A DNA stretch of 64,000 nt from Raillietiella orientalis (GCA_036172245.1 JAYWIR010000011.1:496001-560000); one strand, 5' to 3'. Positions 2,642 through 57,107 are shown, counted from the first letter of the stretch. A program made the numbers and translations. Notes: a model not told the origin generated them from the sequence alone.

Positions 2642-5600
2642 ATGACCAAATTATATTTAAAGGATGCTGGAGTCAGTTTTGACTTCCCCATCGAAAAAAG
2701 TGTACTGCAGTAAGTATGACCCTTAAAGATTATACCGTTTATATTATGTTTGTTTGATGGTATTCTGTTCTCCAAAACTATAATTCATTTCCGAGTTTAA
2801 GCTGGGATTGCTGATGATTTTACTGATTATTATGCCCTAGTAGTCAAGATCATAACGTGATTTGCTCCGTAGCCTTTAAGGTTTTTCACTTCACAATTGG
2901 GATACTTCATCCCTGAATTGTAGAACTGACAATTTGATTGAATTAATTTTTATGTAATTTCTTAACATAGTGACACTTGTGTTTTTAGCTGCAAGTTTCG
3001 CGTTTCAAAAATCTTGCGAATGCAAAGTTATAAACTTGTGGCACTTGAATGTTCAATCTCTGAAATTTTTTTAGAAGTATAAGTTCACGAAAGGATGAAA
3101 AAGTTGCCATAATTGGAATTGTAGGAAAAACTGATCTATTGTCACATGGATTTAAAGCTGTCAAATTAGAAGAACTTTTTGGAAGGAATGTATTCTATCC
3201 TTGTAACTTAGGTGATATAAAGTTGGATATGTCACTTGGGGTGAGTTAAGTATGGAATAATCTGCAAAGTCGATTCCAGTTTCATATACAAGGTTATTTT
3301 GATCCTTCAACTCACATTGTGGTATTAAATTTCTTCAGCTTCGGGGATACTGTATGCTTGCAAACACTGTTAAAATCCAAAGAAAATGAAATTGCAGAAA
3401 AAGCAAGTAGAATTTAAATGTGTCCTAGGGATGTCATTGTTTGTTTAAATGTCATTGCCTTGTTTTATCTTAGGGATTTTTAAGTGTTTGGTCTGAACTG
3501 AAGTGTGGATATGCCCAAGGATTATTGTATCTTTTCTCCATTTGCCATATTCTTGTTTTTTATCATCCTACATATTGCTTTGATTTAACTTATGTGTCTT
3601 TATTTCGTACTCTTGATATTGTCAGGTAATGTTGGGAGGAATTGGAAAATAAATTTTCTCTCAGACAGAAACTTCTCCCTTCAGTGCTGGAAGTGCTCAA
3701 GATTGTGCCTGGTATATCTAGGGACTGGTTGGCACATGGTCGATTTTGTTCTCCACGAGTGTTGTTTTTCTTCAATACATGTCCAGAGTTGTTGAAGAGT
3801 AAAAATTTGGACAAAGATGATCGTGATGCTGATATGAATTGTTCTAATGCTAAGCATGGTCTTCAGAAACATCCAGTAAAAAAGTTGGAACATACACTGG
3901 AAGACCAAATATATCGCATTTTAAGAAAGAGTCGTGTAATTACCAATATGAGGTCAGTCTCCTGTGCTATTGCTATATTATTCTATTGTATGTTATGAAG
4001 TTCTAATTCTTTATTTGCGATTCCGGTGAACCATGAATTTGTGTTTATAAATACGGAAGAACAGAATGGCCCATGTGAAGTTACTGCTATGCTGCAGCAA
4101 TTAGTGACTCTGTGTCATCCTTTGGACACAGGTAAGAATGCAATGTGCATATGTGTGCATGGTGCTCTAGGAATCTTTCCTAATGTAGATAATAGTCAGA
4201 GCAGCCTGTGCCAAGGTATTTCCTCCATCACTAATGGTGTATTGGGTAGCAAGAAACCACTTGATGATTTGCATAGTACTTATCCAGAAAGGAGTTACAA
4301 GCATTTTCTTAAGCAACATGTAGATTTGGCTTTCAGTAAGGGTTTTGATGACAATGTTGGAAGACACATGGGTCAAATGCTTTTTGAAGTGAGTCTCTCA
4401 CTCTCACTGTCAAGTTACTGGTTGTTTCAGGTCCCTTTGGCATCAACATGGTTTCATGCTGCATCTAAATTATTTGATCTGTTTTTTATGGATAATACAG
4501 AACGAGATCCCAAAGCAAAGCAGGTTCGGATCATAGGAGTAAGCCCTCTGATGCGCTTATGTTCTCAGGCTTTTGCTACTCTCAACAATTTAGTGGATAT
4601 TGATAGACGTTTTAGCAAAAACCGCTGTTCCAAGGTGTTACCACTTGCTATTGCAGCTTATCAAGAAGGTCTTCCGCCTCGTTACACAGCAGAATACCAT
4701 CTATCTAAGGTATATTAGAATGAAATCAAGGGAGCAACTCTGAAAAGTTGTCCCATGCAGTGGCCATGTTTAGTTTCCATGCGAGAGGATCAGCTGCTGA
4801 TGCATATATCATGCAGCTGCGTGAGGAATGTGACCGGCACTGGCGCAATGGGCGTCAGGTTTGTGAAGTGCTTAGCTTGACAGGCAATCTGTGTACCAAT
4901 CCAGTACACCGGTTGCGTTCAACTGAGGACGAGGAAGAAGAATCAGATGAGAAACGGCAAGTAACTGCTGTCCTTACATTTGTTTATTAATATTCTAGGA
5001 ATCTGCCTGAAATGCCCCATTGTAGTGGTGTCAAGTATATCAGCACATGCAATTGTGGACATAAACAGGCATCACGAGATGACCCATTTGATATTCAGGT
5101 GGCCAATGCACAGTTTTATGAACAGTTAGCAGACTCATGTTGTCATGGACTGAAAAGTGTTGCCTTTCCTGTGTTTAAACCAAGTGGGAAGGACTTTAGG
5201 CAAGTTAATAAAGTGCCCAATTTGTTATTTACTCATTTTAGGGCTGCAGAAATGCCACAGGGGAATATTCAGGAGCAACTTGTACATGAATCATCTGATG
5301 GCGCACTTGAAAATGAATGTTTGAGCTTCGGTTGGTACAACTTTCACATAGCAGTTTATTTTTCAGATCAATTTTCAGATCAGTCCTCTGCCAGCAATCT
5401 CTTCATTCATGAAGGAGCAGACAACCTCAGTCCTCCTCCTCTAAGAATAGAAGTGTCCAGCCAGGAAGAAGACAGAGAAGAAAGTGTAAAAGGTTCAGTT
5501 ACCTCAGTTGCTTCATCCGAGGACACATTCTCTAAAGAGGACGAAGTATTGGATGAAAAAGATGTAGAAGTAGCTGAGACCTCCACAGGTAACCTTTGAT

Positions 5601-6523
5601 TAATGGAGGCATACTATGGTTTATTTGCTCATCAGATTTGCAACCATCGACTACCGAATATCTTCCTGGAATGTTGCATTCTGATTGTCCTTCTGGACTC
5701 TTACCTAGATTTTCTTCTTGGTCCTTAGTTTGCTTAGGGCCATCTTCTTTATATTCTCATAGCTCTGGTATTCATGATCAACCAGGTTTCCTAAACGGAA
5801 CCAATTTTCTGCTTCCTTGGGATGTTATTATTAAAGTAGAAAATAAGGAGAAATGGCCAGCCATAGCAGAATCTATGGGCAAAAAGGGCATGTACCTGAA
5901 ACACAAAAAAGGTACAGGGGAGAGTGCTGCGTATCATGTATTGCTCTTTAGATTTGTCTGAGTTCAACATTAAAATTTTTGTGGGTATGGAATATGAGTG
6001 CCCTCGAGGACATCGATTTATGTGCTCAAGCCCTGATAAAGTACTTAAGGCTGGAAGTTCAGGGCTAATCAAAGACAATGCAAGCAAAATCATTAGCAAT
6101 GACATGCCGTTATATTTCTACTGCCCTTGCAGGTAAGTGGCCACTTGAGAGCTACTTATTGTTGTCGTAGAAGTACAAACCCTTGGATTGCTCAGTTGAT
6201 GCGTGTACATGTAGTCACTCCAAAAGCTCCTGTCCACATTACAGTGTTTCCCAAAGTTCAGCCAGCACCAGCTCCTTGTCCTGTGTTTTTGACAGGCATG
6301 CAAGAACCATTAAAACTTTCCCAAAGTACATACTGGATTTTAAGATTTCCGTATCCTTTTTGGAGGTGCGAACTTGAAGTTCTGTTCCTTAGCATATGCC
6401 AGGTTCATTTATTTGGGTCCTCAAGGACCATATCTGCCTCCAAAGAATGAAGATCCAAAGTTCTTTGGAAGGTTATTGAAATCCACTTTTGGGATTACCG
6501 ACATAATTTTGGAAAAATTATAA
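2642..6523 (+). CDS. SMG8: Nonsense-mediated decay factor SMG8 (about 17 exons)
   Basis: Spliced frame from ATG 2642 to TAA 6523; motifs LLYLFSICHIL, LEDQIYRILRKSRVITN, KGFDDNVGR, WRNGRQVCEVLSLTG, STTEYLPGMLHS, FVGMEYECPRGHRF, AQLMRVHVVTPKAPV. Confidence 0.95.
6351..6402 (+). other. U12-type (minor spliceosome) GT-AG intron in SMG8
   Basis: Donor GTATCCTTTT; branch-like TTCCTTAGC at 6385-6393 close to the CAG; removal restores the frame LRFP-FIYLGPQGPYLPP. Confidence 0.8.
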
Positions 6524-7624: not shown

Positions 7625-8280
7625 TTTTTCACCCGGATAAGCCGGGGCGTTTATTTTCAAAATTACACATAATTTGTTATATTTAAATGTAGTCTTTTGG
7701 GCACTGCTTCTTATAGGACACATGGTTCTGGCAGTGTTTTTTTGCTTCTCCTTACCGACCCGCTGGCCGGTGTGGTACTCTCCACGGGCGAAAGGGACGG
7801 GAAAACCAAAAGAAAAAAAAGCTAAAACGCCCGGGAGACAAAGTTGTATGGGGTGGGGAGGGATGGGATGGGATCACTGCTCGCCGGGAGAAGTCCTTGC
7901 CCGCATCCGGTTTCGGATGCGGGCAAGTGCCGGTGGAATTGCCCTTAACCGGCGCCATGGCATGCCTTCTCCATGGAGAGGACTGCCCAATGAATGGCGT
8001 TCCGGCTTCTACGTCCTCTCCTCGATGCATCCCCACTTCTCCAGTATTCCGCATATGCAGCAGAGGACTGCAACACACGCGGCTGCTCGCAGGGCGTTCC
8101 GCATCAGGAGGCGACGGAAAAGGTCGTTTGGGTCGCCAGCCGGAATGTTCAGGATCGACGGCAGTCGATTCCACATGGGGCGGAGGGCGACACAGTCAAC
8201 TAAAAGGTGCGGGAGGGATTCCCACCCCCCACACCTGGCACACTTCCCCGTGTCCCTGTGTCCCGAGGACAGAACGTGTT
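7625..8280 (-). mobile_element. 5'-truncated L1/Tx1-like element, family A
   Basis: LMRNALRAAACVAVLCCICGI matches VRDALPPASALAALCCLRGI; T-rich UTR; terminus AATAAACGCCCCGGCTTATCCGGGTGAAAAA at 7655-7625. Confidence 0.8.
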
Positions 8281-10240
8281 CGGCGTGCCGGTAAGGCGCG
8301 GCATCCGGCAGGGCGACAGCCTGAGTCCCCTGCTCTTTAGCACCTATTTCGAACTGGTGCTGAGAGCATACAAAGTGACATTGGCTGCCCTGCCGAGCTC
8401 GTGCCCAGGTACGCCGGCCGTGTAGGCGTATGCTGACGATCTTCTGCTCCTGCTGCCCATGTCCGCCCCGGCCTCGGCAGTCGAGGATTTCTTCGACTTG
8501 CTGAGCCGTGGAACAGGACTACGGGTGAACAGGACGAAGTCGTCGCTGGTAGCAGTTGGTGCAACGTGGGCAGGACGACCTGATTGGATCCGCCTGGGGA
8601 TCCCCACGGAGAGGTACTTGAAGTACCTCGGCGTTCCGTTGGGGGACTTCTACCAGTCAGAAGCCCGGTCAGGTCGTCTCCAGAAAGTAAAGTCGGCGAT
8701 CGGCCCGTTCCTGGAAGGCAAGTTTCACTTGCCGGAACGGGCCGCGATGTGGAACGCGTTCGCGGCCCCCCTCCTTCGCCCCCTGCTTTTTGTTTGCCCC
8801 GTACCCCGTGAGATGAAAAAAAGAACAAAGGACCTCCTGCGCATCGCCCTGTGGGGCGGCGGGGGGCCTCGTGTGCCGCTGGAGGATTTGTGCGCTCCAC
8901 ATCGGGACGGAGGTCTTAGCGTCCTGACGCTGGAGCGCGTGGAAACACAGCTGCGGTCGCGTACCCTAGCCATCGCGGCGAAGATCTGGAGCACCCCTTG
9001 GTGCGTTCCGGCCCGCCTCCTCGCCAGACGTGTGTCCGGGACTGAAGGACTCGCGTCTTTTCTTCTGTGCCCCGGCCGGAAAATAAGAAGATGCGGACTT
9101 CTCCTGGGACGCATGACCACCCTGGCAAAGGAGAACGGCTGGATGGCCTGCAGCCCCGCCAACTCGAGCGCATGGCTGGAAGAAACAGTTGGAACGTGGG
9201 CAAAGTTAAACCAGCCTAGTGGAGAATCCTGGAACCGCCTGCGTCCCGGCATCTACACCCGCTGCACGCTGCGGAACATGATCGAGTGTCCCACCAGAAG
9301 CACTTGGGCGGAGACGACCCCACTGGCCACGGCGCTGCCCTTCCTACGAAGGGCGCTTCAAAACAGCCGGAAGCCGAGGTGGCAAGTCACCTGCCGGATA
9401 GCGGGCAAGGAGAAGGATTTAAGTGGGTGGACCATGAGGGAACTGGCAGACGCCGCGACCCCAAGCGTTGTCCCGCGAGGAATCCAGAGATGGGGCGAGC
9501 TGCTTGGCATCCCGGTGGATGACCTAAAGTGGCCCCCGTTGTTCAGAGACGCATCCACCTTCCCCCTCAAGTGGCAGGAAACGGCGCTGCTGCTGCTGCA
9601 CTGGGGTCTTCCCTGCGACGCGCGCCCCCCACCACTGGACGTTGGGGAAGGTGGGACAGAACTGTGCAGTGTGCGGGGAGAAGGAATCCCTCCCCCACCT
9701 GTTAGTGGACTGCGCTGCTCTCCGGCCCTTGCGGGAACGTTTTGCTACGACCCTCCGGATGCCGGTCGGCAGCCCCCCCAGAGACGTTGTACGCCTCCCC
9801 TTCGTGCGAGATGCCCTGCCACCAGCCTCAGCCCTGGCAGCGCTCTGCTGCCTCCGAGGGATTGTGGCAGCGTGGAGCGCAGCCAACAGAGGAAGCAGCG
9901 ATAGGGACGCCATCCTACACGTGGGTCGCTACCTGCGAATCGCGATCGGCTGGTCCCATCTGGGAGCAATGCAGAGGGACCTCGAGGGCATCCTGGAAAG
10001 GATGGTCTCTTCCTCCAGAGGGCTGTGATCCCCTCCCGCCCCCCCAAATAGTTTCTTTTTTTTTGTTTGTTTCATTTATTTTTGTTTTTGTTTTACCCCC
10101 TATCCCCTCCGCTGCCGAGGAGAGTCAAGCCGGAGTCAGAACCGGCTTCCTGGCAGGTCCCATGAACTATTGGCTGTAGAGAGGCCTAGTACCGCAAATG
10201 TAAATTGTTTATTAATAAACGCCCTGGCGTGACCCGGTGG
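8281..10240 (+). mobile_element. 5'-truncated L1/Tx1-like non-LTR retrotransposon, family A (best-preserved copy)
   Basis: RT motifs GIRQGDSLSPLLF, YADDL, GLRVNRTKS, KYLGVP; LCAPHRDGGL; Zn-knuckle CAVCGEKESLPHLLVDC; stop at 10028; T-rich UTR; AATAAA plus GC-rich end at 10214-10239; one in-frame stop and a frameshift. Confidence 0.92.
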
Positions 10241-10280
10241 GAACTCCCTGATGTCCAGTGGAAGAGGCGTGCTCTGCGAT

Positions 10281-10450
10281 GCCGCCCGGATACGCCGGGA
10301 CGTTTATTTAAACTCTTGCATGGTCAATACAACACGTGGTACAAGGCCCCACTAACGGTCAGCATCGCGCCGGACCTGACGGGACAGCGGTACGCAGTGC
10401 AGCGTGACTCTCCTCATCAGTAGAAGGGGAAGGGGGAAAAACCAAAAAAG
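10281..10450 (-). mobile_element. Isolated family A LINE 3' UTR and terminus, fused to viral Rep
   Basis: T/C-rich tract followed by AATAAACGTCCCGGCGTATCCGGGC, the same terminal motif as other family A copies. Confidence 0.75.
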
Positions 10451-10894
10451 TGGGTGTTATTCTTGAGAATGTACAGTTCATCGGCACCATTCTCGATAAG
10501 TTGTGGTATCTGGAAAGAAATGTGTTGAATATAATGAATGCAGCAGTTAGCGTACCTGTTCTTCGTAGCTCTTGGCTTCAGCTTGTTCGGAGAGTGCATC
10601 GTAAACCCAAGCATCTTTGTCCTGCTTGGTGCAGTACCTAATGTTGCTCTGAGCAGAGCCTTTGGCTTTTTCCAGATGGCATTTGTGAAACGGTTTCCTG
10701 CGGAGTCCTGGTAGTGTTTTCGGTCCCTTTAGCTGAAAGTATCCCTGTAGGCGCGGTGTGCCAGTTTCAGCTGTTTCTTTGCCAATGCAGGCAAAGATGC
10801 AGTTACAGCGGCACCACTGTTTTATCGCCTTGAAGTCGTCTTCACTGTAGTTACAGAGAGTGAGGCACCAATTGAAAAATGGTGCGTACGGCAT
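10451..10894 (-). pseudogene. rep: Endogenous CRESS virus Rep, copy 1 (HUH endonuclease domain and start of exon 2; truncated)
   Basis: Motif I WCLTLCNY, GKE..ETGTPRLQGY (motif II region), HLEKAKGS, motif III YCTK; GT-AG intron 10555-10510; exon 2 IPQLIENGADELYILKN. Confidence 0.93.
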
Positions 10895-10985
10895 CGTGCG
10901 TGTACTCGGTAATTCACTGGAAGTAAGACTATGGTGCGGATGTAACTGGTGGCTTATGTACTGGCTAACTGCGTAGTTTTGTTGA

Positions 10986-11017
10986 GCGCAGTCTGGTCAG
11001 TATTACCCAGATTGCGC
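10986..11017 (+). promoter_or_regulatory. CRESS rolling-circle origin stem-loop, copy 1
   Basis: GCGCAGTCTGG-T-CAGTATTAC-CCAGATTGCGC: 11-bp stem with one G-T pair and a NANTATTAC nonanucleotide at 10998-11006. Confidence 0.92.
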
Positions 11018-11308
11018 GGCAATCATCCGGCACCGTGGGAAATTGTTGTGTACGTATGTTTATCTATGGTGTTCGGTTTTTGTCCGCCTACGTGGAAGAC
11101 TTGGGAATGCGGAAAAGCGGTTTGCTTTCAGCCGGAGGGCGTCTGGTGAAACCCGACCTCGTGGAAGACTAGAGGAGTCGGGTGGGCGTGGCCCACCAGC
11201 TGAAGTATGAAAGGGAGCGGGGAAAGGAAAATACGTCAGTGGGCTATCTAGTAGGCGAATGTCCACAGCGGGTCGGTTTGCTTCTCGAAAAAGGGAAAGG
11301 TGGATCGA

Positions 11309-11508
11309 ATGGCGTGTTATCGAAGAGGCGTAAGCTGACCAGATTGCGCTGGGGTTACGGAGCATTCGAGGGTCGCCGTCGTTTTCGCGTCGTGCGCAAC
11401 CCACGTCGGAAGTTTGCGAGGGCTTTGCGTGTGGTGGAGCGATCGGGCGTGGCTGGAGCAACGCACTATGCGTCGCGAAGAACGGCTGACCACGATCCAG
11501 TAAACTGA
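11309..11508 (+). pseudogene. Putative CRESS capsid N-terminus, copy 1 (frameshifted, truncated)
   Basis: ATGGCG then Arg-rich KRRKLTRLRW...GRRRFRVVRNPRRKFAR, divergent from rep across the ori; same position as in copy 2. Confidence 0.65.
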
Positions 11509-11544
11509 TCTTGGATGTTTTTGTATAAGGAGGAGGTCGCGTCT

Positions 11545-11740
11545 TGAGTCTTGCGGCACGGATGAAGCGAAAATCCGCAAATCTGAGGTGGCCAGCCGAA
11601 GTTAGGGAGTGGCTGGGATCCCGGTGTAGTGCGACGCAACGCGTGGCTTTTGCTTGGTCCTTGTGATTTCCTATTAGGGAAAGCCACATTTTCTCTCGCG
11701 TTGGAGTGAACGGACGTTGGCCACGAATTTCTTCCACACT
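11545..11740 (-). mobile_element. Fragment of NeSL/Utopia-like (restriction-like endonuclease clade) non-LTR retrotransposon
   Basis: KDQAKATRCVALHRDPSHSLTSAGHLRFADFRFIRAARL resembles the DQGK...SNHF...TRFADWRFIHRARL block of these elements. Confidence 0.7.
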
Positions 11741-12169
11741 GAGCTGTCTAGCACCTCTCCATGTATTCTTATCTTTGGTTCACCTTCGTCGAAAAAATCA
11801 AAGATGGTGTTCCATTCACTAAAGTTAAAGAACATTTACAGAAAAAATTGGAAGAATTTCAAAAATTCTGATCTGCAATAATAACAACGGGAAGGTCTCA
11901 CTTTCCCGAAAATGAGTATATTGTAGATATCTCTCATTATAAACCTGTTACTAGGCAAGGACTCAATATGATATCCAGAACTGGGTTTAGAACATCTTAA
12001 TAAAACATCACGCCGTGCAAGATACAGTTTTCCTGAAAAAGCTATCAAAGTAATAATTAAATTTATTTACAAAATAAATCGTTTTTTAAGGCAAAAAAAA
12101 GGAAGAGCAGGCAGAGCCAGCGAGAATAATATGGCGGATGTAACACCCACTAATTCAATTAACAAATCA

Positions 12170-13250
12170 GGGACACCACAGCCAACTGGGACGACTGGCC
12201 ATACGCGGCTCACAGAGCCTACTCTTTGTTGTTGAACAACTGATGACTACCCTATTAAGCTGAGAAGGGGGATGGATCACCATCGGCCAAACATGGAGAA
12301 GGAAGCAGACACTGGTGCAGAAGCACCAACTCAAGATCGTGCCTGGAAGCAAGAAACTCTGGGAGGAGGAATCCATCCTAGTAATCCCCTGGTTACTCCC
12401 TGTCCCTAGTGACACAAGGAACTGGATATACCAGAGGCCCAGAGTTACCTTAAGAAGAATAGAGCAGCGGAGACGCGGTGGCTACTACCACCACTCCCGC
12501 CTGCTCAGGTACATCGAGATGGCGAGGGGAAAGCTCACACACAGAACGCGCGAAGTGCGGAAAAACCACAGTAACTAGAGTGGTCCAGGATGAACAAGAA
12601 AAACATCATCTCATACGTGAAGACGATCAAGACACTGATCCCCTCCAGGAAGCTGCCAATCGCTACGGGAGCGACACCATCGACACGTTGGAGATTGGAA
12701 CGACTCTCTGAAGGAGTGACCTGCTGGACACCCAAGAGACCTCCTAATGTTCTACTACGAAGGAATCCGGAGTGGGTCCAGGATGAAATACTTCACGCGC
12801 AACCAAGCAGATGAGGATTGCAGGGCATGTGGTGACGTGGGCACGAGACTTCACGTCTCAGATGTATCAAGACTGGCAAACCCTTAAAAGGGTGATAGGG
12901 CTGCCGAACAGCACGAAGATGGAATTCGTGGCGGGGATGTTCCAGAGAAACGGAAACGCCCCCCGCTACAACCCGACGGTTAGGGCGACCGTCGCCCTGT
13001 TCATCACCGCCATCCTCGTACGATAGCGGAAGATGAGGACCGCCAGTGTAGCCTTCTTTCCCTTGGAAATCCTGAAGAAGAAGATTGCTAACCGGAACTG
13101 TGGACGAATGTAGACCTGGACGTACCGCTACATCCTGAGAAGGATTGAGGATGCTCTCCAGGCATACCCAACGCTCAGTCCCCACTAGTGCAAAACCTTA
13201 GTGTAGTGCAGTGACCCAAAGAAGTGAACATCCAACAGAGAAAACATCTA
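12170..13250 (+). mobile_element. 5'-truncated non-LTR retrotransposon, family B
   Basis: KIVPGSKKLWEEESILVIPW..WIYQRPRVTL shared with 28505-29361; knuckle CRACGDVGTRLH; C-terminal GMFQRN..PRYNP..RNCGR..WTYRYIL shared with other B copies. Confidence 0.75.
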
Positions 13251-14079
13251 GTAAATCTGTGCCCCCTGTTTGAGTGAATGCGTTTTGTAGTATGAATGGA
13301 AAAATGAATTTTCCCACCCTCGAGGTACTGGAAAAAGCGTGGTTCTTCTATTCGAATGATCTATCCCAGTAATTTTTTACCTGATCGTTCTGAAACCGTG
13401 ACGGTAGTTGTAGAAAACGAAGAGGTGGGAGATCGGGAACAATTTGTTGCTTCCGAATGTTGTTCTAGGAAACTGCATCCAACGATTTGGCTATTGTCGC
13501 GCTTAAGTTCCTTGGTTACCATGCCTTCATTATTCTACAAGCGTGTTGCATCACCTTTTTTTTTTTACAGCTTGTTAGATGGCGTGTGCCGTTCTTCAGG
13601 TAGTTTAAAAATAATGGGTTGGTACAACATGTTAACTTGCCTGCTGCTCCAGGTTGATCCAGAGACCGCATCAGGTTTCTTGGATGTGGGGGTTCTTCTA
13701 TATTCAAGCGTGCCCGGTTGCCATTTTTTGACTTGAAAGTTTTCTAGAGGACTGGAAGTGTTCGTTCTTTGCCAAGGTTCTTTGCCCTTTGAGAAAGTTC
13801 ACTGTTCTTGAGGTACTCGGATTCGTTAGTGGAATTATTCACTCGGAAACTCCTTCCTGCGTCATGCCTCACGCTTCGGTTTCTTAGTCTGGGTGCAAGG
13901 AATCTCTTGATGGTTCCATGGAAACAGGATTTTCTCTGTTGCAGAACAACTGTCTGTCTGCAGGACTTTCTCTGTCCTGGGGCAGCGGATAGAATTTGTC
14001 CTTAGATTCTTCTGGACGAGCTACTGCCAAGGATTTTCCCTTAAGAACTGGCATTCCCCACGAATGACAGGATCCGGGT

Positions 14080-21060: not shown

Positions 21061-24988
<3,928 letters not shown>

Positions 24989-25849
24989 GTGTTTCAGTGA
25001 GCAGTAATTTAAATAAAATCGCTTACATCACAGCATGGTTGTTCATGAAAAGTCTGATAAAACATATAAGAGTCTTTTCTGACACTTGAAAAAATAAATT
25101 TGCGATAAACTTACTCGTGTTAAATTCCCACCATTTCAGATTCCATCTGCTTTATTTTATCGACCCCCCTTTAATGTTCTACAAATGTAACTCACCAGTA
25201 TGCTTTGCTGGCTGGACAGAACTATGTAATGAAACATTTAAGTATTCCTTACTTAAAACATTTTAATGGTGGGAATTGTGGATATCTACATGGAATTATG
25301 GCTAAAGGAAAAATTGAAGCGTTTGCAAGCTTATGCAATGAAATTCGAATGTGAATTGGACCTGAGCGCGGATGCTGGGGCTGCAAAACATCATTGCAAA
25401 AAGATATGACCTGTGCTCACAAATAAGTTTGTCAGGGAAGTGTCTGATGTGAAGTTGATGAAAACTTTGAAATGAAATCCAACATAGATTTGTACAGTAT
25501 GCCGATTGAGGATAACGCTGTATTGGCAGCTACCTTCAAAGTTCAAAGGAATCTCCGATATCGGTAGTAATCGCCTACGAGGTTTTTTTTTTGCTTCGAT
25601 TATCCTGCATGTCGTCGACAGAGTTGTGGACGAACGTTCAAGGGTTCGGTTTGTGGATGTAACCGCCACCAGTGATTGCGCGACTCCGGGCTTGCAGTTG
25701 CGGCGGGGGGGAGGGTGCCAAAGAAGAATGGCATAGATGCAGAACGTGAGATGGTAGGTAATGGCTGCAAGAATGTTTCCGCACGGCAGTCCTTGCCAAG
25801 TTGTCAACCACACCAGTCCTTGTGGTGTGGTTGTTTTCGTCTGCCTGTT

Positions 25850-27349
25850 TTTCGCATCTAAAGGGAATGCCCGACAACCTGCTACCAGACACTCAGAAAG
25901 GGCGCAGACGATCTGCTGCTGCTGCTCCCCGTGTTCACCCCGGCGTCTGCACTTGAGAGCTTCGAGTTTCTCATCCCCGGAACGAGCTTGAAAGTGAACA
26001 GGGAGAAGAAGTCTTCCTTGATCCCAGTTGGGGTGGCGTGGGCAGAATGACCGCACTGGATTCGCTTGGGGATCCCCACGGGCGGGTGATTGAAGTACCT
26101 TGGCGTTCCGTTGCGGGTCTTCTGCGCTGCAGAAGCCTGATCAGACTGTCTTCAGAAGGACGAGCAGGTGCTCGGTTCGTTCTAAGGAGACGGATTCCAC
26201 TTGCCGAAACGAACCGCGGTGCGGAACACTTTCGTGCCTTTTCTCCTTGGCATCCTGCTTTTTGATTGCCTTCCACCGGAGAGCATCAGAAAGCTGACGA
26301 ATGACTTCCTTAGGATCCTTCTTCAGAGCAACGGGAGGTCCTGAGTCTGCCTGAAGGATTTGTGTGCTATCGGGACAGCGGCCTCGGCCTCCTGACGCTG
26401 GAGGAAATGGAGCTTCAGCTCCAATTTCGGATCCTGCGCACCTCCTCGTCCGGCAAGCCACCATCAGCGAAGGGTTGCATCCTTTCTTACTCGTCTCCCA
26501 CTGCAAACTGCAGCTCCAGCGCGTGGCAACCTCGACAACACCTGACATTCATGGCACCTGGATCTCCTGCCGTCCTGTGAACGGTACTGTCTGGCTGCAG
26601 GAAACCATTCGCACGATTCGCAGGTGGACGAGGAACCAAGAGCGATGCCCGGAACAGGTGCAGCGATTCCTGTATGCGCCTTACAACAGCTGCTCTCTTC
26701 GGGAAATCCTTGAACATCCCGAGAAGAGCGCGTGGGCAGGTAGAACTTCCCTTGCCGCAGCGCTGCCCTCCCTGAGGGAACACATAGGCAGCAACCTTCC
26801 GGCTAGATGCAAAGCCTCCATGGAAATGTCCGACAGGAGTAGAGCACTGCGTGACTGCAAGAAGGGTCAGCTTTCATACACTGTGACCCCGAGTGCCTCA
26901 CCTCGAGGACTTCTGTGCTGGGGCAGGCTGCTGGATATTTCGCAGGAAAGTACTACAATGGTTTCTAGTACTTTTGGGCACTCACACCCTCCCTTAAAGT
27001 CGCAGGAGTCGGCGTTGATTCCCCTGAACTAGGATCCTCTTTGCAACGTCCACCGTTAGACCCGAGGGTATGTGAGTCCGAACTTTGGCAGATGTGGGCG
27101 CGTGAATCCCTCCCGCACCAACTTGTGAATTGTGTTGCCCACCAGTCCAACACTTTTCCTCGACTTTAATAAGCCTTCAATGACCTTCAAGGACGCTTTC
27201 AGACCCTCCCTCGTGCGCGACGCCCTCGGTCAGCAGCCTTGCTAGGATCTCTCTGCCGCCTACGTGGAACGAGGGCGATGCAAGAGGGGCCCGAACGACA
27301 GGTGTGCCACATCCACTTTGTCGTCCGCTTCATGAGGATGGGAACAAGA
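25850..27349 (+). mobile_element. Family A LINE, 5' part (interrupted by CRESS genome)
   Basis: ADDLLLLLP, LKVNREK, KYLGVP, RDSGLGLLTLE, LAAALPSLR, ESLPHQLVNC align to 8281-10240; frameshifted. Confidence 0.88.
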
Positions 27350-28009
27350 TTTTTGCAGGAGTGCACGTAGATTGCTCCTCTTTTTAGATATGAGTATTTC
27401 GCCACGGTTGTCTTGCCGGCGTTTCCAATGGTGTCGTAGTACGAGTATATTTGTCATTCGCTGGCAGGTTTGCGAATGACGTCAAAGAGGTCCATTGTCC
27501 ATTTGTCGAAGGTTGGCGGGTGGGTTTGAATGAGTTCTATTTCTTGATAGGCGAAAGCATTCCTTGATGAACTTGATATCGCGTGAGCAGAATTTTGCAT
27601 GGTTTTCCAAAATAAATGTTTCGTCTGCGCCTGCTTTAATGAGTTCGACTACCTAAAAAGGGATGGCGTTAGTTGAGAGAGGAGGTTAATTGGACTCACT
27701 TCCGTTCGTAATCATGCCGAATGTCCAAGCTTGTTCATCCTCCTTTGTGCAGTACCTCAAGTTGCTTTGTGCGATGCCGCGACTCTTCTCCAAGTGGCAC
27801 TTCTGGAAGGGCTTTCTGTGCAGCCCTGGCAGAGTGCGTGGCTCCTTTAACTGCCCTTGAAGAAGACGCGGAGTGCCGGTTGTTGCAGTTTATCGTCCAA
27901 AAATGCAGAACCTGCACTTGGTGCGGCACCAGCATTTGATTTTTCGAAAATCGCCTTCGGAGTAGTTGTTCAATGTGACGCACCAATTGAAGAAGAGTCC
28001 GTAAGGCAT
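27350..28009 (-). pseudogene. rep: CRESS Rep N-terminal part, copy 2 (HUH domain, intron, Walker A)
   Basis: MPYGLFFNWCVTLNNY, TGTPRLLQG, HLEKSRG, YCTKED; intron 27699-27653; YYDTIGNAGKTTVAKY (Walker A at 27426-27409); frameshifts and stops present. Confidence 0.9.
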
Positions 28010-28089
28010 CGTGGAATTCACCGATGGTATGACTGTGGATCGGTGCTGGTAGGTGGTTTATATACGCCGGAAGTGAGTAGTTTGTGGCG

Positions 28090-28121
28090 CAGCAGTCTGA
28101 TGAGTATTACCCAGATTGCTG
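28090..28121 (+). promoter_or_regulatory. CRESS origin stem-loop, copy 2
   Basis: CAGCAGTCTGA-T-GAGTATTAC-CCAGATTGCTG; nonanucleotide at 28102-28110; TATATAAA on the minus strand about 50 nt upstream of the rep ATG. Confidence 0.88.
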
Positions 28122-28326
28122 TAAACCGATCCGGTTGGAAGTTGCAAAGATGTATTTTTAGGAAGTGGTCTGTCAAGTCCGAGATCGCGAAGGACTTACG
28201 CGGAAAGCCTGCAGGCTTACCAGATGTTTCCGCTGGTGAAATCCGACCTCGTGGAGGGCTTGGAAAGTCGGATGGGCTCCGCCCACCAGCCACCAAATAG
28301 ACAAGGGGAGAGGGGATAGGTGAAAA

Positions 28327-28505
28327 ATGGCGGTACGCTGTCAATAGCAGCAGGATGGAAGCGCCTCGCCGGTTTTCTTCTCGTAAACGAAGAAGTGTTT
28401 AAGAAGAGGCCTGCAGCTAAGCGTCGGCTTTTGCATAAATTTGGTTGTGATGCGCGTAAGCGTAGGCGTCGGTCCAACGCAAGAAGAACAAAGTCGTTGC
28501 TGTCG
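28327..28505 (+). pseudogene. Putative capsid Arg-rich N-terminus, copy 2
   Basis: ATGGCG in the same context as copy 1; RFSSRKRR and KKRPAAKRR...ARKRRRRSNARRTK across frameshifts. Confidence 0.6.
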
Positions 28506-29361
28506 CCAGGATGAACCAGGGACCACCAGAGAAGTTGAAAAGCTGCAGAGGAAAACACTATGGGGGCATTATCGCCCAAGAGTACGGTTAAAACCCCTGT
28601 GTCATCCCAGGGAAGAGGGCGGTTCCGGGATGAAGTCGCTTGCACATTCCATGGAAATCATGGATTCACGACACATCCTGAACATCACTACTCACTGGGA
28701 TGACTGGCCGTACGCGGCGCATAGGGCCTACGCGTTGTTGAACAACTCGACAGGTCTGATGACTGCGCTGCTAGGCCGAGCAAGGGAATGGATCAACATC
28801 GACCCCAGATGGAGGGGAAAACAACGGTTGGTGCGAAAGCACAAGATCAAGATCGTGCCAAGAAGCAGGGAGCTCTGGCAGGATGAATCCATGCTGGTGA
28901 TCCCGTGGATGCTTCCGGTCCCTCCTGACACGAGAAGCTGGATCTACCAGCGGCCCAGAGTTACCCTGCAAAGAATCCAGGAATGGCAACGAGGAGGATA
29001 CCTACATCCCACTCGTATACTTCGGTATATAGAGATGATGTTAGGTAGGTTTACCCACAAGACTCGCGAAGTATGGAAAAACCACGACTTCGCGTGGTCC
29101 AGGGCAACCAAGATGAACTACCGAAGAATTTTCAAAGAAGGGGAACAAGATACCAGTGCCCTCCAAGAAGCTGCCGATCGCTACGGATCAACCTGTTAGC
29201 GATCGGCACGATGCTCTGGAGGAGTGACCTACCACCGGACACCCAGGACAACCTCCTGATGTTCTATCATGGAGGAATCCTGAGCGGGTCCAGATTGAAG
29301 CATTTTACTGGAAGACGGGATGACGAAGACTGCAAAGCGTGTGGCGACATTGACAGTGTAC
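28506..29361 (+). mobile_element. Internal fragment of family B non-LTR ORF2 inside the viral capsid gene
   Basis: LCHPREEGGSGM (L1/Tx1-type motif), WIYQRPRVTL, knuckle CKACGDIDSV; homologous to 12170-13250; no 3' UTR. Confidence 0.82.
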
Positions 29362-29669
29362 GATGGTATCAAAAGGGTATACTGTATTGAGTTAAAGGTT
29401 TGCCAACTGGGAAGAGTGTAAAGTATCCTTGGCTGGATAGTGGCGAGGAAAGCGGCCTGGATATGGAAATGAAAGTTCAGATAGGGTTCAGCCGTGTACA
29501 TGTAATGAAGCATATGTCTGGAGTTGATATATCAGATGAGCTGAAAGACGGTTGTTCCCGAGGTGTGTGTCCAAAGCAAGGGACATTGAACAAAGGTTAT
29601 CCTGTGTATAGAGTAACGAGAAAACTCTATCTGGAATCTAAACAAACGAGAGACGTTGGGTTTTATTGA
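29362..29669 (+). pseudogene. Putative capsid C-terminal part, copy 2
   Basis: Non-LINE frame WYQKGILY*VKGLPTG...MKVQIGFSRVHVMK ending convergent with the rep stop; assigned mainly by position. Confidence 0.5.
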
Positions 29670-29792
29670 CTGATGTGGCTATTGATGGGAGACAAAGTAC
29701 TTATTAAAGAGTCAGGGGCTCGTTCTGTTCTAGGGCTTGAAGAACAAGCCCATGGAAGAATGGCTCCTTCCTCATTCATTGTCCAATGGGTG

Positions 29793-30045
29793 TTATGTTT
29801 CTGCTCTTGCAATATTCTTGATAACCCATCTGTCACTGGACATCTTGGAGTAGTCAGGTTCCCAGTTTGCGAAGATGATGATGTGGGGAACAGCAAAGTA
29901 CTTGATTGTACCTTGATATTTGGAGTCGAATACAATTCCATTTTTTAGACTCTCGATGAAGCCGTACCTGACGTGCTCTTGGCTGTCCCGAGTTACGTCA
30001 ACAACGATGATCAGCTCGCCGTTATAGATGTGGGCAGCGTCTTGT
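29793..30045 (-). pseudogene. rep: CRESS Rep C-terminal SF3 helicase part, copy 2
   Basis: QDAAHIYNGELIIVVDVTR (Walker B), YGFIESLKNG..SKY, PHIIIFAN (motif C), SDRW; resembles nanovirus/alphasatellite-like and related unclassified CRESS helicases. Confidence 0.92.
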
Positions 30046-30331
30046 TCCCACTCTGGAGAATATGCTAAGTGAACTTGCCTGCATCCTCGAAAAGAAACAG
30101 AGGACTGCCCCTGGCAGAACGTGATCCCTTCCTGCATCCTCCCAAGTGTATTAATTTTTTTATTTTTATTTCTGCTTCTTTTTGTTTGCTCCCTCCCTCT
30201 GCTGCCTTTGCGGACCTCACCGGTCTGTTCACCGACAACTTGGCAGAATCCTTTGAAAATTGACGTGTTTGGACCATCGGTCCAAAGACGTCAATTTCAC
30301 CCGAGTACGTCCCGGCGTACTCGGGTGAAAA
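30043..30331 (+). mobile_element. Family A LINE 3' end (continuation of 25850-27349)
   Basis: TCCCAC..GAACTTGCCTGCATCC..GTGATCCC, T-rich UTR, terminus CCCGGCGTACTCGGGTGAAAA. Confidence 0.85.
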
Positions 30332-30419
30332 GGCACTCAGGATAATCTCATTTCTATCACGGAGTCATTCCGAGTTGTTCCAAAATTAAACATTGGACAG
30401 GCAACTGACCAGAGAGCTC

Positions 30420-31010
30420 CGCAAGGCATATGGAGCCAAGGAAAACCAGCTCCACATACATCCCCATGTTCCCGACGCGGAGCCAGGATTGAGCAAAGCT
30501 GAAGGCGATGACCGGCCGGCAGGTCCAAACGAAGACCTTGGTGGGCATGTTTAAAGGGAACGCAAACGTTCCCAGGTACAACCCCATGATCTGCACCACC
30601 ATGTCCCTCTTCATCGCGAGCATCGTGATAAGGGCAAAGTTGCAGAACACCAACGTGTCAGTGCCTGCTGCCAATATCTTACAAGGCCTCATCAGGAGGG
30701 AGATTGGGATCAGGAACTGCGGCAGAGTATCCGCCTGGACTCATCGCTACATCTTGAAGAAGATGGCGGATGTGGATCCAGTGAGTGGAATGCCAACCAG
30801 AGCCTAGTGACCCCTACGCCAAAAGGAAATTTCCAGAGTTAACAAAAAGTGACAATTACTGACTCGAAGTGTTATGTGCAAAAACACTCGAGAAAGTGTC
30901 TACAAAATTGGTGATTGTAATTACCGTTTTCAAAGTTGATGAACAGATTCATCTCCTCGGCCGGTCGGACTGGGGACATTTTTGTATATTCCCCGTTAAA
31001 CAGCCGTATC
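30420..31010 (+). mobile_element. 5'-truncated family B element with 3' UTR
   Basis: GMFKGNANVPRYNP...GIRNCGRVSAWTHRYILKK, then TAGTGACC. Confidence 0.78.
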
Positions 31011-34685: not shown

Positions 34686-36928
34686 TTAGTCATCTCTCAA
34701 TTTATAAGGCAAAATGGTAACTTTGAGATCGAGACCCATTTGACTTCGAAGCATAGATGCTGCATGACTCATCTGAATAGCACAATCAGGATGCATATTG
34801 CCAGGGAGTAAGGTGCACTCCCTTTCCAGAATAGAAGCTAATCCTTCCAACAATTCGTAAAATCCCAAAGACAGAGCACCTTTACGTATCCGGTTCAATT
34901 CCTAATAGCTCAATAGAATCTACAATGTAGTTACTACACTTACTTTATAAAAATGTTGAATTTTTTCTGGTAGCTTGCGTGCATGTCTTAACAATTTTTG
35001 AATATCAGTTTGAAGGCCAGATTGCCTTATCCAAACTACACAATTCTGTGAATAACTTCTCTTTTCAATAACTCTCTGTGCAGAAATGTTATCAGGAAGA
35101 GGAGGTCCTAGTCTTCGCAAATCACCTAACCAAGGAACTGGCTGATGACCTGCAAAATACTCTGGAATGCATGATCTTTTCCAACTTACCTGGCACAAAT
35201 AACGTTAACATAAGATTAGCTTTCTTGCGATTATCAGCCCAAGAATAGAGAATACCAAACCAGTCAGCATCCACTGTGCACAGTGCAACCATATTTCTTA
35301 CTTTAAGTGCACCATGCAGGAGGACACAAAATGATGGAATAGTTTCCTCCTCCTCTTTGATATCATTTTCAGGAGCTACTGGACATACTAAATGCCTTGA
35401 AAGAGCAGGTGGAGATGCCACATCAGAAACACTCATGAAGCCACAAATGTCTATGGTTTCAGATATGCACTTATATACAACATCAAAATCATGAACACGA
35501 TGATATGGTTGAGGAATAGGGGACAATATGACAGGAGAAGATAGTTTACCACAACAAATCTGTCTTTGAAATGAACGAAAATGTTCTTCTGCCAATTTAT
35601 TGAACATGGTATTGACAGTCTGCAATCTCTTAAAAGAATTCTGATCACCCTGCAATTCATACCAGCTGTGTTATAGGATTATCTGGGAAATACACATCTC
35701 CTCCAGGACTATTTGCTTCTATTATTTGTTTGTAAAATGGAATGCTTTTTTTTATTGACTCTTCATTGGGATCAGCAATACACATAACATGCAACTTGCA
35801 TGGAAATGAGAAAATGATAGGGGCTTTCTGCTGAAGGCTAATACTACCATCAGTTACTAAAACAATCTACAAAATCGAAAACCACGTATTACATTACTAA
35901 AGTCTCCATCTGAAGCATATAAGTTTAAAAAATGTCAAAAAGTTTACATGTTCTTGTCTATTCTCCCACTTTTTTTTTTTTTTGTAACTCCATAGTTCAA
36001 GAAAATGATAATTCTTAAAATTTGTTTTCAGTGTTACTCTTATGATGCTATAAAGGGTAGTATACATGAAACAAAGACAAATGGCATAAAAAGAAATTAC
36101 TTATCGGAAAACGAGAGTTTTACTTTAATTGAAATTCCTCTTTTTTTGTTGCCTAGTTTATGCATCCCAATTCACGAAAACAATACGTGGCCTTTCAAAC
36201 AACCACTTTTTCTATAAGCTAATAACGCATTTACTATTATCAAGGTTACTAGTATACAAAATTACATTATCTACACCATACCTGACATGGAAAGTTGGAT
36301 CCCCATTCCTCGAGAACAACACCATTCACTCCAATTAACGCATCTTCCACAGAAGTTTTATCATATATCTCCAATTTGTTAAGAGATTGGTCGATTTGTT
36401 CAAAATCTCGAGTGAATGCAACCATAACTTCGTACAATGACGAAAAAACAACCTATTGATAAATATACAATGCAGAAAATTCAAAAACTTATCAAGTTGA
36501 CAAATTTAATTTTTGCATCATTTACAATCAACTGGATTTCACTGTAAATCTATTTATGGCAAGCATGAATCCTTCATTGACTTCTATGCTTGACTTTCTC
36601 AAAACAGTAGAATAGACTTGTTTATTGCAATAGAAACCTGTAAATTGAAACATTCCACGCAAATTACTTATGACATACATGGACAATATAAATATAGGCT
36701 TAAAAGTATTTAGATCCACTAAAATAGAACATGACATAATACCGATTCTTTTCAAAGTCTTACCAAAGAAGCAAATTCCAATTTGCAATGCTGAGCCATA
36801 AAAGTTATAAAGTGTTTCAAACCATTAGTGGCTAATTGGATACAAGTTTCTGATTCTTGTTTTTCAGATGAACACTTGATAGGTCTCAACATAGACAAGG
36901 AAACATCTAGTAAAAGCACAGTAGGCAT
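34686..36928 (-). CDS. INTS14: Integrator complex subunit 14 (VWA9)
   Basis: MPTVLLLDVSLSMLRP..KLEFASL, PSFCVLLHGALKV, WFGILYSWAD, KRSYSQNCVVWIRQSGLQTDIQKLLRHARKLPEK, LERECTLLP..HPDCA; multi-exon. Confidence 0.95.
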
Positions 36929-56015: not shown

Positions 56016-57107
56016 AGGACGCAAACTCTCCTTCATTCACATTCCATGCCGACTCCTCATTACTGAACCTCACATCCGCACTCCATAACATTACGGAGTT
56101 CTTACTGACCCAAAGCAGCAACACCAACTCTCGGGTCAGTTGGAGCGACAGCTCTCGGAGGAAGATGCATAATTTCCATACGATAAGGAGACACCAAAAA
56201 ATCGATATTTTATACAGCGAAATTTCCTCTTACTGCAATAACAGTCCCGTACACATAAATTTTTTAAATAGCAACAAGATTCCAACATTCCTGAAGATAC
56301 ATCAAGTAAACTTCCCAATAAACAAAAAAATATACGTGCACACGGATAAAAGCAGACGAACGATAAGTTTTTCAATTAAAGACCTCACAAGCCCCTATGA
56401 AAAAATTCCAGTGTGTTCTTGACGTCCGTGCAGTCCCACTCTAGAGCACCACCAAGCTGCCAGTGCTGGAGGGAAATCTGATAAGAGTGCAACGTGCAAT
56501 CATTGGATTTCCGCCCAGATGACGAATCCAGCTTCATAGCAAGATCCAGGAGAAAAAAAAGAATAAATTCTCCCAAAATTAATGAAATTCGGGCGCAAAA
56601 ATAAACGTCGCTCTTCGCTTTCTCACACGAATGGAAAGCATGCATCTCGATCTAATCTAGTGTAATTACACACACATTAATAAGAAGATAGAAAGAAAAA
56701 AACTCCACTAATCAAAAGTGAAAAAAAAAAAAAAAAAACCAAAAAAAAAAAAAGAAACAGAGAAAGGAACATAAATAAGAGAAAGCTCATTCGAAATGCA
56801 AACAAAGAAACGACAACTAAAAAGACATTAGAGCATTAAACCTGTCAAGACAAAAAAAAAACCACCAACATCAAAAACACAAGAAGAAAGTAATTCTTCT
56901 CGAAATACAAAAAGAGCAAGTACGGGCAAAAATTCAAGTGACATCGAAAAGCAGACAAAGAAAACAAAAATTCCTAGCAGGAATACCTCTATGCACCTAA
57001 GCTAAAAAACAGACACAACGAAACCATTCAAAAGAAAACACTACATCAAAAAAACAAAATAAAAATTGAATAAAAATTAAAATCCATAAAAAACCAAAAC
57101 AACTCAC

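What the first reader, a model, noticed from the sequence alone, without database searches (positions are those of the whole stretch)
10281..11740. Second, independent LINE-virus chimera: Rep fused to a bare LINE 3' UTR
Seen: on the minus strand a NeSL/Utopia-like fragment runs into antisense capsid and ori, then rep, then directly into the T-rich 3' UTR and terminus of LINE family A, with no LINE coding sequence. Breakpoints differ from copy 2 and the Reps are clearly diverged (MPYAPFFNWCLTLCNY vs MPYGLFFNWCVTLNNY). Knowledge: a LINE 3' end joined to foreign sequence is the usual product of RT template switching. The retained intron and ori imply a DNA or unprocessed template rather than mRNA. 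The viral strand relative to the LINE is opposite to copy 2, so a single mechanism is not proven.
Basis: partly seen in the sequence, partly recalled or inferred. Interest (0 to 1): 0.8.

Follow-up and report, generated by a model that had tools for sequence, protein, structure and literature searches.

The report
Endogenous circular-virus Rep abutting LINE debris
This is a fossil fragment of a small circular single-stranded DNA virus lodged among LINE retrotransposon remains in an animal-like genome. It is a real, separately acquired copy, but nothing shows that a LINE reverse transcriptase made the virus-LINE joint.

Summary
The core observation holds. On the minus strand, 10894->10450 encodes the N-terminal nuclease domain of a CRESS-DNA virus Rep (Pfam Viral_Rep, E 8.6e-13), with a 46-nt GT-AG intron. 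About 100 nt upstream lies an origin hairpin carrying AGTATTAC. Rep stops at 10450 and runs directly into a 168-nt LINE-A 3' UTR (10449->10282) with no LINE coding sequence. "Capsid" is only an Arg-rich stretch. "NeSL/Utopia" was not tested.

Independence from copy 2 is supported. The two Reps differ mostly at synonymous sites (pN 0.25, pS 0.81).

RT template switching is not shown. No target-site duplications were found, and the intron and origin are retained. Copy 2 (27340-30050) proved to be a whole, circularly permuted viral genome sitting inside one LINE-A element whose two flanks are contiguous. That points to DNA-level insertion.

Three features remain unexplained:
- Both copies carry a LINE-B ORF2 piece on the capsid side, in the same orientation.
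- Both have Arg where all 7 exogenous relatives have the motif II His.
- An 11-nt inverted repeat marks copy 2's two junctions.

Verdict: a new member of a known kind (CRESS endogenous viral elements among non-LTR retrotransposons). The mechanism at the 10450 joint is unresolved. No host genome was available for a copy census.

The parts
10282..10449 (-). LINE-A 3' UTR fragment, from the T-rich start to the canonical terminus, with no ORF2 sequence
   Evidence: Alignment with 4 other LINE-A 3' ends; blastn against the neighbouring LINE-A; landmark coordinates
10450..10509 (-). Rep exon 2, first 20 codons only; truncated at 10450
   Evidence: Reading; tblastx to copy 2 exon 2 and the alignment of copy 2 to the L005 Rep
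10510..10555 (-). 46-nt GT..AG intron with a pyrimidine tract, retained
   Evidence: a 47-nt intron at the same position in copy 2
10556..10894 (-). Rep exon 1 (113 codons, open): HUH-type nuclease domain with motifs I and III, and motif II carrying Arg in place of His
   Evidence: Pfam E 8.6e-13; Rep profile E 1.6e-16; alignment
10986..11017 (+). Origin hairpin with an 11-bp stem; the loop holds the nonanucleotide CAGTATTAC on the capsid-sense strand
   Evidence: The motif lies on the strand opposite Rep, as in L003, L007 and L008
11143..11200 (.). Intergenic block 81% identical to copy 2 (28233-28290)
   Evidence: fold z -2.85
11259..11745 (+). Capsid-side segment: an Arg-rich reading from an ATG 365 nt from the Rep ATG. 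Capsid identity is inferred, not shown
   Evidence: Translations; no significant homology; GC and GC-skew drop at about 11745
11746..12100 (+). AT-rich block (GC 31-35%) ending in AATAAA (12073-12078) and a run of 8 A (12093-12100). Either native DNA or a retroposed RNA 3' end
12101..13261 (+). LINE-B: 5'-truncated ORF2 post-RT region through the CCHC motif to the 3' region
   Evidence: blastn/tblastx to copy 2 (secure from 12162) and to LINE-B3
8264..10241 (+). LINE-A1, from the RT to the 3' end. It lies tail-to-tail with the minus-strand UTR piece, separated by a 40-nt spacer (10242-10281)
   Evidence: tblastn with P0003, 63% over 348 aa
27340..28009 (-). Copy 2 Rep N-half (nuclease, intron, linker, Walker A). 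It contains stops and a frameshift
29793..30050 (-). Copy 2 Rep C-half (Walker B, motif C, C-terminus, stop), open
   Evidence: Rep profile E 1.4e-28; tblastn with 7 Reps, E 5e-10 to 4e-19
28522..29407 (+). Copy 2 LINE-B ORF2 fragment, lacking both ends, inside the viral circle on the capsid side
25832..27340 (+). LINE-A2, left part. It ends at LINE-A coordinate A1:9940 / A5:14788
30043..30335 (+). LINE-A2, right part. It starts at A1:9951 / A5:14783, so it is contiguous with the left part

Best explanation
Window 10450-11745 is a partial endogenous copy of a CRESS-DNA virus. The virus has Rep and capsid diverging from a common origin region, and the nonanucleotide lies on the capsid-sense strand. 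The copy entered the genome as DNA, with its intron and origin intact. It entered separately from copy 2, which comes from a related but long-diverged virus.

The Rep/LINE-A joint at 10450|10449 is most likely an end-joining scar between opened viral DNA and LINE-rich chromosomal DNA, possibly reworked by later LINE activity. It is probably not a LINE-A reverse-transcription product.

Shown: the viral identity, the origin, the intron, the exact joint, the purifying selection between copies, and the whole-circle structure of copy 2 inside one LINE-A.

Inferred: that copy 1 integrated in the same DNA-level way, and that its missing Rep remainder and right flank were lost to later rearrangement (the AT-rich block and LINE-B).
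For: - Viral identity.
- Origin hairpins in both copies. The nonanucleotide lies opposite Rep in 3 of the 5 fetched loci that have an exact match.
- The intron is retained at the same site in both copies.
- Purifying selection: Rep pN 0.25 / pS 0.81; LINE-B dN/dS 0.14 (bootstrap 0.07-0.23); wrong-frame controls >=1.
- Copy 2's two Rep halves meet between Walker A and Walker B, and its LINE-A flanks are contiguous within about 10 nt by two reference copies. So this kind of virus did enter a LINE-A element as a unit-length DNA.
- No TSD was found around the UTR piece or around virus+UTR.
- Whole viral genomes integrated as DNA are on record for CRESS EVEs (passages in 10.1101/207399; PMC10193959).
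Against: - In copy 1 the other side of a LINE-A target is not seen. No minus-strand LINE-A ORF2 lies right of the viral part or right of LINE-B.
- The LINE-A piece starts exactly at the joint, ends at its natural terminus and has the same polarity as Rep. That is the layout a template-switch chimera would have.
- The rest of Rep is not significantly present anywhere in the window. The next profile hit has E 2.4, and traces at 13350-13830 rank only about the 95th percentile.
- The analogy with copy 2 is an inference.
Confidence: 0.45

Rival explanations
1. LINE-A reverse transcriptase primed at the target, copied about 168 nt of its own 3' UTR, then switched in the U-rich stretch onto viral nucleic acid of Rep-sense polarity (complementary-strand DNA or unspliced read-through RNA). 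It copied through Rep, the origin and the capsid side.
For: The UTR piece is complete to its terminus. It is co-oriented with Rep and begins in the T-rich run at the joint. No TSD flanks the UTR piece alone, and no Rep remainder lies beyond it.
Against: No TSD flanks the virus+UTR unit. The template would have to be the non-packaged strand or an odd RNA. A sense intron is retained. Copy 2 needs no RT.
Confidence: 0.2
2. A longer EVE was there first. A heavily 5'-truncated LINE-A later inserted into Rep exon 2, and the downstream Rep was then lost through the neighbouring LINE-A1 insertion or a deletion.
For: The region is a nest of 5'-truncated LINE-A copies: A1, A4, A5, A6 and A7. Two LINE-A 3' ends lie tail-to-tail 40 nt apart.
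Against: No TSD of 6 nt or more flanks the piece. No Rep helicase remnant lies left of it or left of LINE-A1.
Confidence: 0.13
3. A LINE-B-primed chimeric cDNA. LINE-B RT started at the LINE-B 3' end (right), switched to the poly(A) end of a cellular RNA (the AT-rich block), then onto packaged-polarity viral ssDNA. It ran leftward to Rep codon 133. The LINE-A UTR would then be only the 5' target flank.
For: All three parts are co-linear on the + strand. AATAAA lies 14 nt before an A8 run that abuts the LINE-B 5' truncation. The + strand is the nonanucleotide strand.
Against: No TSD between the left flank and the sequence beyond LINE-B. In copy 2 the LINE-B piece sits inside the circle and lacks its 3' end, which this model cannot produce. 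The AT-rich block may simply be native DNA.
Confidence: 0.1
4. A virus had integrated into a LINE-A master copy, and this locus is a 5'-truncated retrotransposed daughter of that chimera, as proposed for carnivore circoviral elements.
For: Copy 2 shows that such LINE-A::virus composites exist here. There is precedent in the passages of 10.1101/207399.
Against: The sense-oriented intron is unspliced. No TSD was found. The LINE-A breakpoint and viral orientation differ from the only composite seen.
Confidence: 0.07

Closest known systems
Endogenous circoviral elements flanked by non-LTR retrotransposons (CVe-Carnivora-4; Dennis et al., bioRxiv 10.1101/207399, passages read)
   Same: A Rep-derived EVE directly flanked by LINE sequence, with retroelement involvement suspected
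   Different: That element belongs to genus Circovirus in mammals and was amplified to 10-20 near-copies. Here there are two copies diverged under selection, with intron and origin retained. A copy census was not possible.
Whole-genome CRESS EVEs: tandem complete circovirus genomes in cyprinid fish and paired Rep/Cap krikovirus EVEs (PMC10193959, passages read)
   Same: Copy 2 is a complete unit-length genome integrated as DNA
   Different: Copy 2 is a single permuted unit opened inside Rep, lodged in a LINE, with a LINE fragment on its capsid side. The finding itself (copy 1) is only a partial genome.
LINE-1 template-switch chimeric retrogenes, such as U6-L1 (recalled from the literature, not from a call)
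   Same: A foreign 5' part is joined in the same polarity to a bare LINE 3' end
   Different: Those carry processed RNA copies and TSDs. Here the foreign part is unspliced, includes a DNA replication origin, and no TSD is found.
Uncultivated CRESS viruses from IMG/VR (L002-L009, 2.0-3.4 kb contigs)
   Same: The Rep helicase half is 34-54% identical. The Rep/Cap layout is ambisense. The nonanucleotide lies opposite Rep in L003, L007 and L008.
   Different: All 7 aligned Reps (5 from these contigs, 2 from L001) have His in motif II, where both window copies have Arg. No LINE-like ORF was found in L001-L009. No intron was needed to read their Reps.

Membership tests
CRESS-DNA virus Rep (Cressdnaviricota) as an endogenous element | N-terminal HUH-type nuclease domain with motifs I-III | tested here: inconclusive
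   The domain is recognised (Pfam E 8.6e-13) and motifs I and III are present. Motif II has Arg where 7 of 7 relatives have His.
CRESS-DNA virus Rep (Cressdnaviricota) as an endogenous element | SF3 helicase half (Walker A, Walker B, motif C) | tested here: not met
   Absent from copy 1: Rep is truncated at codon 133, and no significant remnant exists elsewhere. It is present in copy 2 (E 1.4e-28).
CRESS-DNA virus Rep (Cressdnaviricota) as an endogenous element | Origin stem-loop with a NANTATTAC-type nonanucleotide next to rep | tested here: met
CRESS-DNA virus Rep (Cressdnaviricota) as an endogenous element | Chromosomal context (host genes and transposons on the same contig) | tested here: met
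   Smg8 exons at 3999-6447, IntS14 at 35125-35670, LINEs on both sides
Circoviridae (Circovirus/Cyclovirus) | Rep clusters with the family; circovirus-type capsid | not tested
   No phylogeny was made. The nearest sequences found are unclassified contigs. The capsid was not recognisable.
LINE RT template-switch chimera | LINE 3' end complete to its terminus, co-oriented with the 5' foreign part | tested here: met
LINE RT template-switch chimera | Target-site duplication flanking the whole chimera | tested here: not met
   No shared word of 6 nt or more between 10236-10290 and 11690-11800. Only 7-mers against 13200-13450; words that long arise by chance in about 19% of shuffles in the comparable test.
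LINE RT template-switch chimera | Foreign part is a copy of a cellular or viral RNA (processed, starting at a transcript end) | tested here: not met
   The intron is retained, and the segment spans the origin and both divergent gene starts.
NeSL/Utopia clade (label given to the LINE-B piece) | C-terminal restriction-like endonuclease; site-specific insertion | not tested
   Pfam finds no domain in the LINE-A or LINE-B C-terminal ORFs. There are too few copies to judge target specificity.

The most novel reading that the evidence does not exclude
The LINE-B pieces were already in the circular viral DNA before it reached the chromosome. Under this reading a host LINE retrotransposed, or was captured as filler, into episomal viral genomes on the capsid side. 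Such LINE-bearing, capsid-defective Rep replicons, with Arg in motif II, are what became endogenised, twice.

Points for it:
- In copy 2 the LINE-B fragment lies inside a unit-length circle and lacks its 3' end.
- Both copies carry LINE-B at the same side and in the same polarity.

Points against it:
- The junctions differ between the copies.
- The two pieces are no closer to each other (67%) than to a free-standing LINE-B (68% and 73% over about 85 nt).
Probability: 0.15. Interest if true: 0.8.

Novelty: new member of a known kind. Interest (0 to 1): 0.45.

Why it matters
How DNA viruses without an integrase enter germlines is poorly documented. Here one window holds two separately acquired relatives of the same virus.

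One of them (copy 2) preserves the whole event: a circle opened between the Walker A and Walker B motifs of Rep and set into a LINE, with an 11-nt inverted repeat at the two junctions. That is a clean substrate for asking whether end joining or reverse transcription does the work.

The recurrent LINE-B piece on the capsid side, and the shared loss of the motif II histidine, hint that the donor may not have been an ordinary autonomous virus. For the finding as written, the main lesson is caution. A viral gene abutting a bare LINE 3' end in a LINE-dense region is not by itself evidence of template switching.

Tried and rejected
- Whole genome: none is held, so no copy census was possible.
- Sequencing runs: none was listed, and no RNA holder was listed.
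- The search for homologous proteins, 'longer' mode, with Rep N and Rep C: no hits.
- Protein atlas: uninformative for LINE-B and for Smg8.
- PDB, Pfam at E<=10 and PHROGs did not recognise copy 2's Rep C-half. IMG/VR relatives did.
- A Rep remainder right of LINE-B in copy 1 (13350-13830, minus strand). Collinear Walker A/B/C-like scraps were seen. Frameshift-aware scores rank 14-30 of 424 tiles with viral queries, and 6 of 424 with copy 2's half. The profile chain gives 0.3 bit. Rejected as unproven.
- Capsid Arg-rich homology between the copies, and a LINE-B 5' extension in 11250-12150: not above background.
- The 40-nt spacer as a LINE-B fragment: 14 of 500 shuffles score as well, and other tiles score higher. 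Rejected.
- Copy 2's 29350-29800 as the LINE-B 3' part: no similarity.
- A third Rep at 24800-25900: nothing significant.
- Target-site duplications: none for any tested boundary pair.
- Segmental duplication of one chimera: rejected on the codon-position pattern.
- Metagenome scan: only 3 loci, at most 49% identity apart from a 31-residue match at 65%.
- Literature: three full-text searches listed no paper describing LINE RT copying a CRESS viral DNA template. This is not an exhaustive search.

Full report
**Setting.** The window is eukaryotic and animal-like.
- Smg8 exons lie at 3999-6447 (+). An Integrator subunit 14 exon lies at 35125-35670 (-), and an M24 peptidase exon at 23782-24210.
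- Between them lie GC-rich nests of 5'-truncated LINE fragments in AT-rich DNA.
- No whole genome is held. Everything below rests on this window and on public viral and metagenome contigs.

**The observation.**
- On the minus strand an open 115-codon frame (10547..10894) matches Pfam Viral_Rep at E 8.6e-13. It matches a profile I built from 7 IMG/VR Rep proteins at E 1.6e-16.
- Exon 1 ends at 10556. A 46-nt GT..AG intron with a pyrimidine tract follows (10555->10510). Twenty more codons then continue the frame to 10450. Copy 2 has a 47-nt GT..AG intron at the same place with unrelated sequence.
- The 8-mer AGTATTAC occurs exactly twice in the window, at 10999 and 28103, both on the + strand. 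Two matches alone are not rare: 28 of 100 shuffles reach that number. However, each sits in the loop of a hairpin about 100 nt upstream of a Rep start codon. The fold z-scores are -4.66 and -3.51, and 0 of 200 shuffles fold as well.
- The nonanucleotide therefore lies on the capsid-sense strand. The same holds in L003, L007 and L008. In L001 and L010 it lies on the Rep strand, and 7 of the 12 fetched loci have no exact match.
- From 10449 down to 10282 the minus strand is a LINE-A 3' UTR. It aligns with four other LINE-A 3' ends, from the T-rich stretch to the shared AATAAACG..GG terminus, and holds no ORF2 sequence.
- A second LINE-A (8264-10241, +) ends tail-to-tail with it, 40 nt away.

**What could not be confirmed.**
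- 'Antisense capsid' is an Arg-rich reading on the + strand from an ATG at about 11259. That ATG lies 365 nt from the Rep ATG, against 346 nt in copy 2.
- This is where the capsid genes of the relatives L002 and L003 start, and those also begin Arg/Lys-rich.
- Its similarity to copy 2 is not above background (rank 70-138 of 850 tiles). No capsid ORF from L002-L009 hits the window at E<1.
- The 'NeSL/Utopia-like fragment' is a genuine LINE ORF2 post-RT region. A 270-codon open frame in copy 2 (P0001) aligns at 30% over 128 residues (E 2e-11) with P0003, a 619-aa RVT_1 protein.
- I call this element LINE-B. It is sense on the + strand, and its clade was not tested.
- In copy 1 its secure homology starts at 12162. 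A 350-nt AT-rich block (GC 31-35%) separates it from the viral part. That block ends in AATAAA, then 14 nt, then a run of 8 A.

**Independence.** Over ungapped tblastx segments I computed Nei-Gojobori counts.
- Rep, 103 codons: 64% amino-acid identity, pN 0.25, pS 0.81 (saturated), and identity by codon position 0.69/0.75/0.45.
- LINE-B, 189 codons: dN/dS 0.14 (bootstrap 0.07-0.23).
- The same alignments read in the two wrong frames give 1.0-1.5.
- The introns do not align, while the origin hairpin and one intergenic block (81% over 58 nt) do.
- The copies therefore diverged mainly as working genes, not as duplicated pseudogenes.

**Copy 2 changes the picture.**
- A minus-strand open frame at 30050->29796 is the C-terminal half of Rep (Walker B, motif C, C-terminus). 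It scores E 1.4e-28 against the profile and E 5e-10 to 4e-19 with 7 viral Reps. IMG/VR relatives are 34-54% identical.
- The N-half (28009->27340) runs through Walker A (E 2.5e-5). It stops 18-22 residues after the Walker A lysine. The relative L007 has 23 residues before the point where the C-half begins.
- The two halves therefore meet at the same place. The 2.7 kb between 27340 and 30050 is one unit-length, circularly permuted genome.
- Its flanks are one LINE-A. The left part ends at A1 coordinate 9940 (A5 coordinate 14788). The right part (30043-30335) starts at A1 9951 (A5 14783).
- A return of a reverse transcriptase to the same point of its RNA, after one lap of a foreign circle, is far less simple than insertion of linearised viral DNA into an existing LINE-A copy.
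- No direct repeat flanks the insertion. The same 11-mer stands at the left junction on the + strand and at the right junction on the minus strand (sequences printed). By my own estimate, such a match between two 40-nt windows is expected about 3e-4 times.
- Each arm also resembles the local LINE-A sequence, so microhomology-guided joining or a viral palindrome at the break are both possible.

**The joint at 10450.**
- For template switching: the UTR piece is complete, co-oriented with Rep, and begins in a T-rich run. No TSD flanks it alone. No Rep remainder lies beyond it or anywhere else: the next profile hit after the four true ones has E 2.4, among 2984 six-frame peptides.
- Against template switching: no TSD flanks virus+UTR. 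A sense intron is kept. The template would be the non-packaged strand. LINE-B of opposite polarity lies beyond.
- Against simple insertion into a LINE-A: the upstream part of that LINE-A is not found to the right.
- I looked for the missing Rep half right of LINE-B, where copy 2's layout predicts it. I found collinear Walker A-, B- and C-like scraps at 13700-13400 on the minus strand, but they are not significant.
- I therefore rank DNA-level joining first (0.45), mainly by analogy with copy 2.

**Unexplained features.**
1. Both copies carry LINE-B on the capsid side, sense to the capsid reading.
   - In copy 2 it lacks both ends and sits inside the circle.
   - In copy 1 it runs to its 3' region and is preceded by the A-tailed AT-rich block.
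   - The junctions differ between the copies.
   - In the about 85 nt that all three share, the pairs are 67% (copy 1 vs copy 2), 68% and 73% identical. The two virus-linked pieces are thus not a clade apart from the free-standing LINE-B3 (30340-30913).
2. Both copies have Arg at the motif II position where 7 of 7 aligned exogenous Reps have His. This is a shared state of a lineage that otherwise evolved under constraint.
3. Two independent integrations lie 17 kb apart.

**Literature.**
- Passages of Dennis et al. (10.1101/207399) report circoviral EVEs flanked by non-LTR retrotransposons and apparently amplified with them. They also report tandem whole genomes in fish.
- Passages of Kinsella and van der Hoek (PMC10193959) report paired Rep/Cap EVEs integrated as whole genomes.
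- Rosario et al. (PMC6186406) was seen only as a search listing.
- L1 chimeric retrogenes, twin priming and endonuclease-independent L1 insertion are recalled, not taken from a call.

**Verdict.** This is a real, independently acquired CRESS endogenous element. The LINE-RT mechanism is unproven and, on present evidence, the less likely reading. It is a new member of a known kind, with some unusual side features.

Noticed in passing
27340-30050 (with LINE-A flanks 25832-27340 and 30043-30335): Copy 2 is a complete, circularly permuted viral genome opened between Walker A and Walker B of Rep. It is inserted in a single LINE-A element whose flanks are contiguous within about 10 nt.
   Followed up: yes
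27339-27349 (+) and 30034-30044 (-): The same 11-mer stands at the two junctions of the copy 2 insertion in inverted orientation. Each arm also resembles the local LINE-A sequence. This could be a palindrome at the viral break or microhomology.
   Followed up: partly
10748-10762 and 27863-27880 (minus strand, Rep motif II): Both copies read Pro-Arg-Leu(-Leu)-Gln-Gly where all 7 aligned exogenous Reps have His after the Pro.
   Followed up: partly
12101-13261 and 28522-29407 (+): A LINE-B ORF2 piece sits on the capsid side of both viral copies in the same polarity, with different junctions. Chance, target preference and pre-integration capture have not been told apart.
   Followed up: partly
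11746-12100 (+): An AT-rich block (GC 31-35%) with a short open frame, then AATAAA and an A8 run directly before the LINE-B 5' truncation. It looks like a retroposed RNA 3' end but could be native DNA.
   Followed up: partly
10214-10309: Two LINE-A 3' termini face each other across a 40-nt spacer. The termini themselves are near-complementary and could form a long hairpin.
   Followed up: partly
30340-30913 (+): A third, free-standing 5'-truncated LINE-B begins 5 nt after the LINE-A 3' terminus at 30335.
   Followed up: partly
57049-63999 (-): A very long open frame (2317 codons, running off the window) in a GC-rich (59%), strongly GC-skewed, visibly periodic region.
   Followed up: no
8264-9304 (+) vs P0003: A 619-aa RT protein from a JGI metagenome contig (2870 nt) is 63% identical to LINE-A ORF2. 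DNA of a related animal is therefore present in that metagenome.
   Followed up: no
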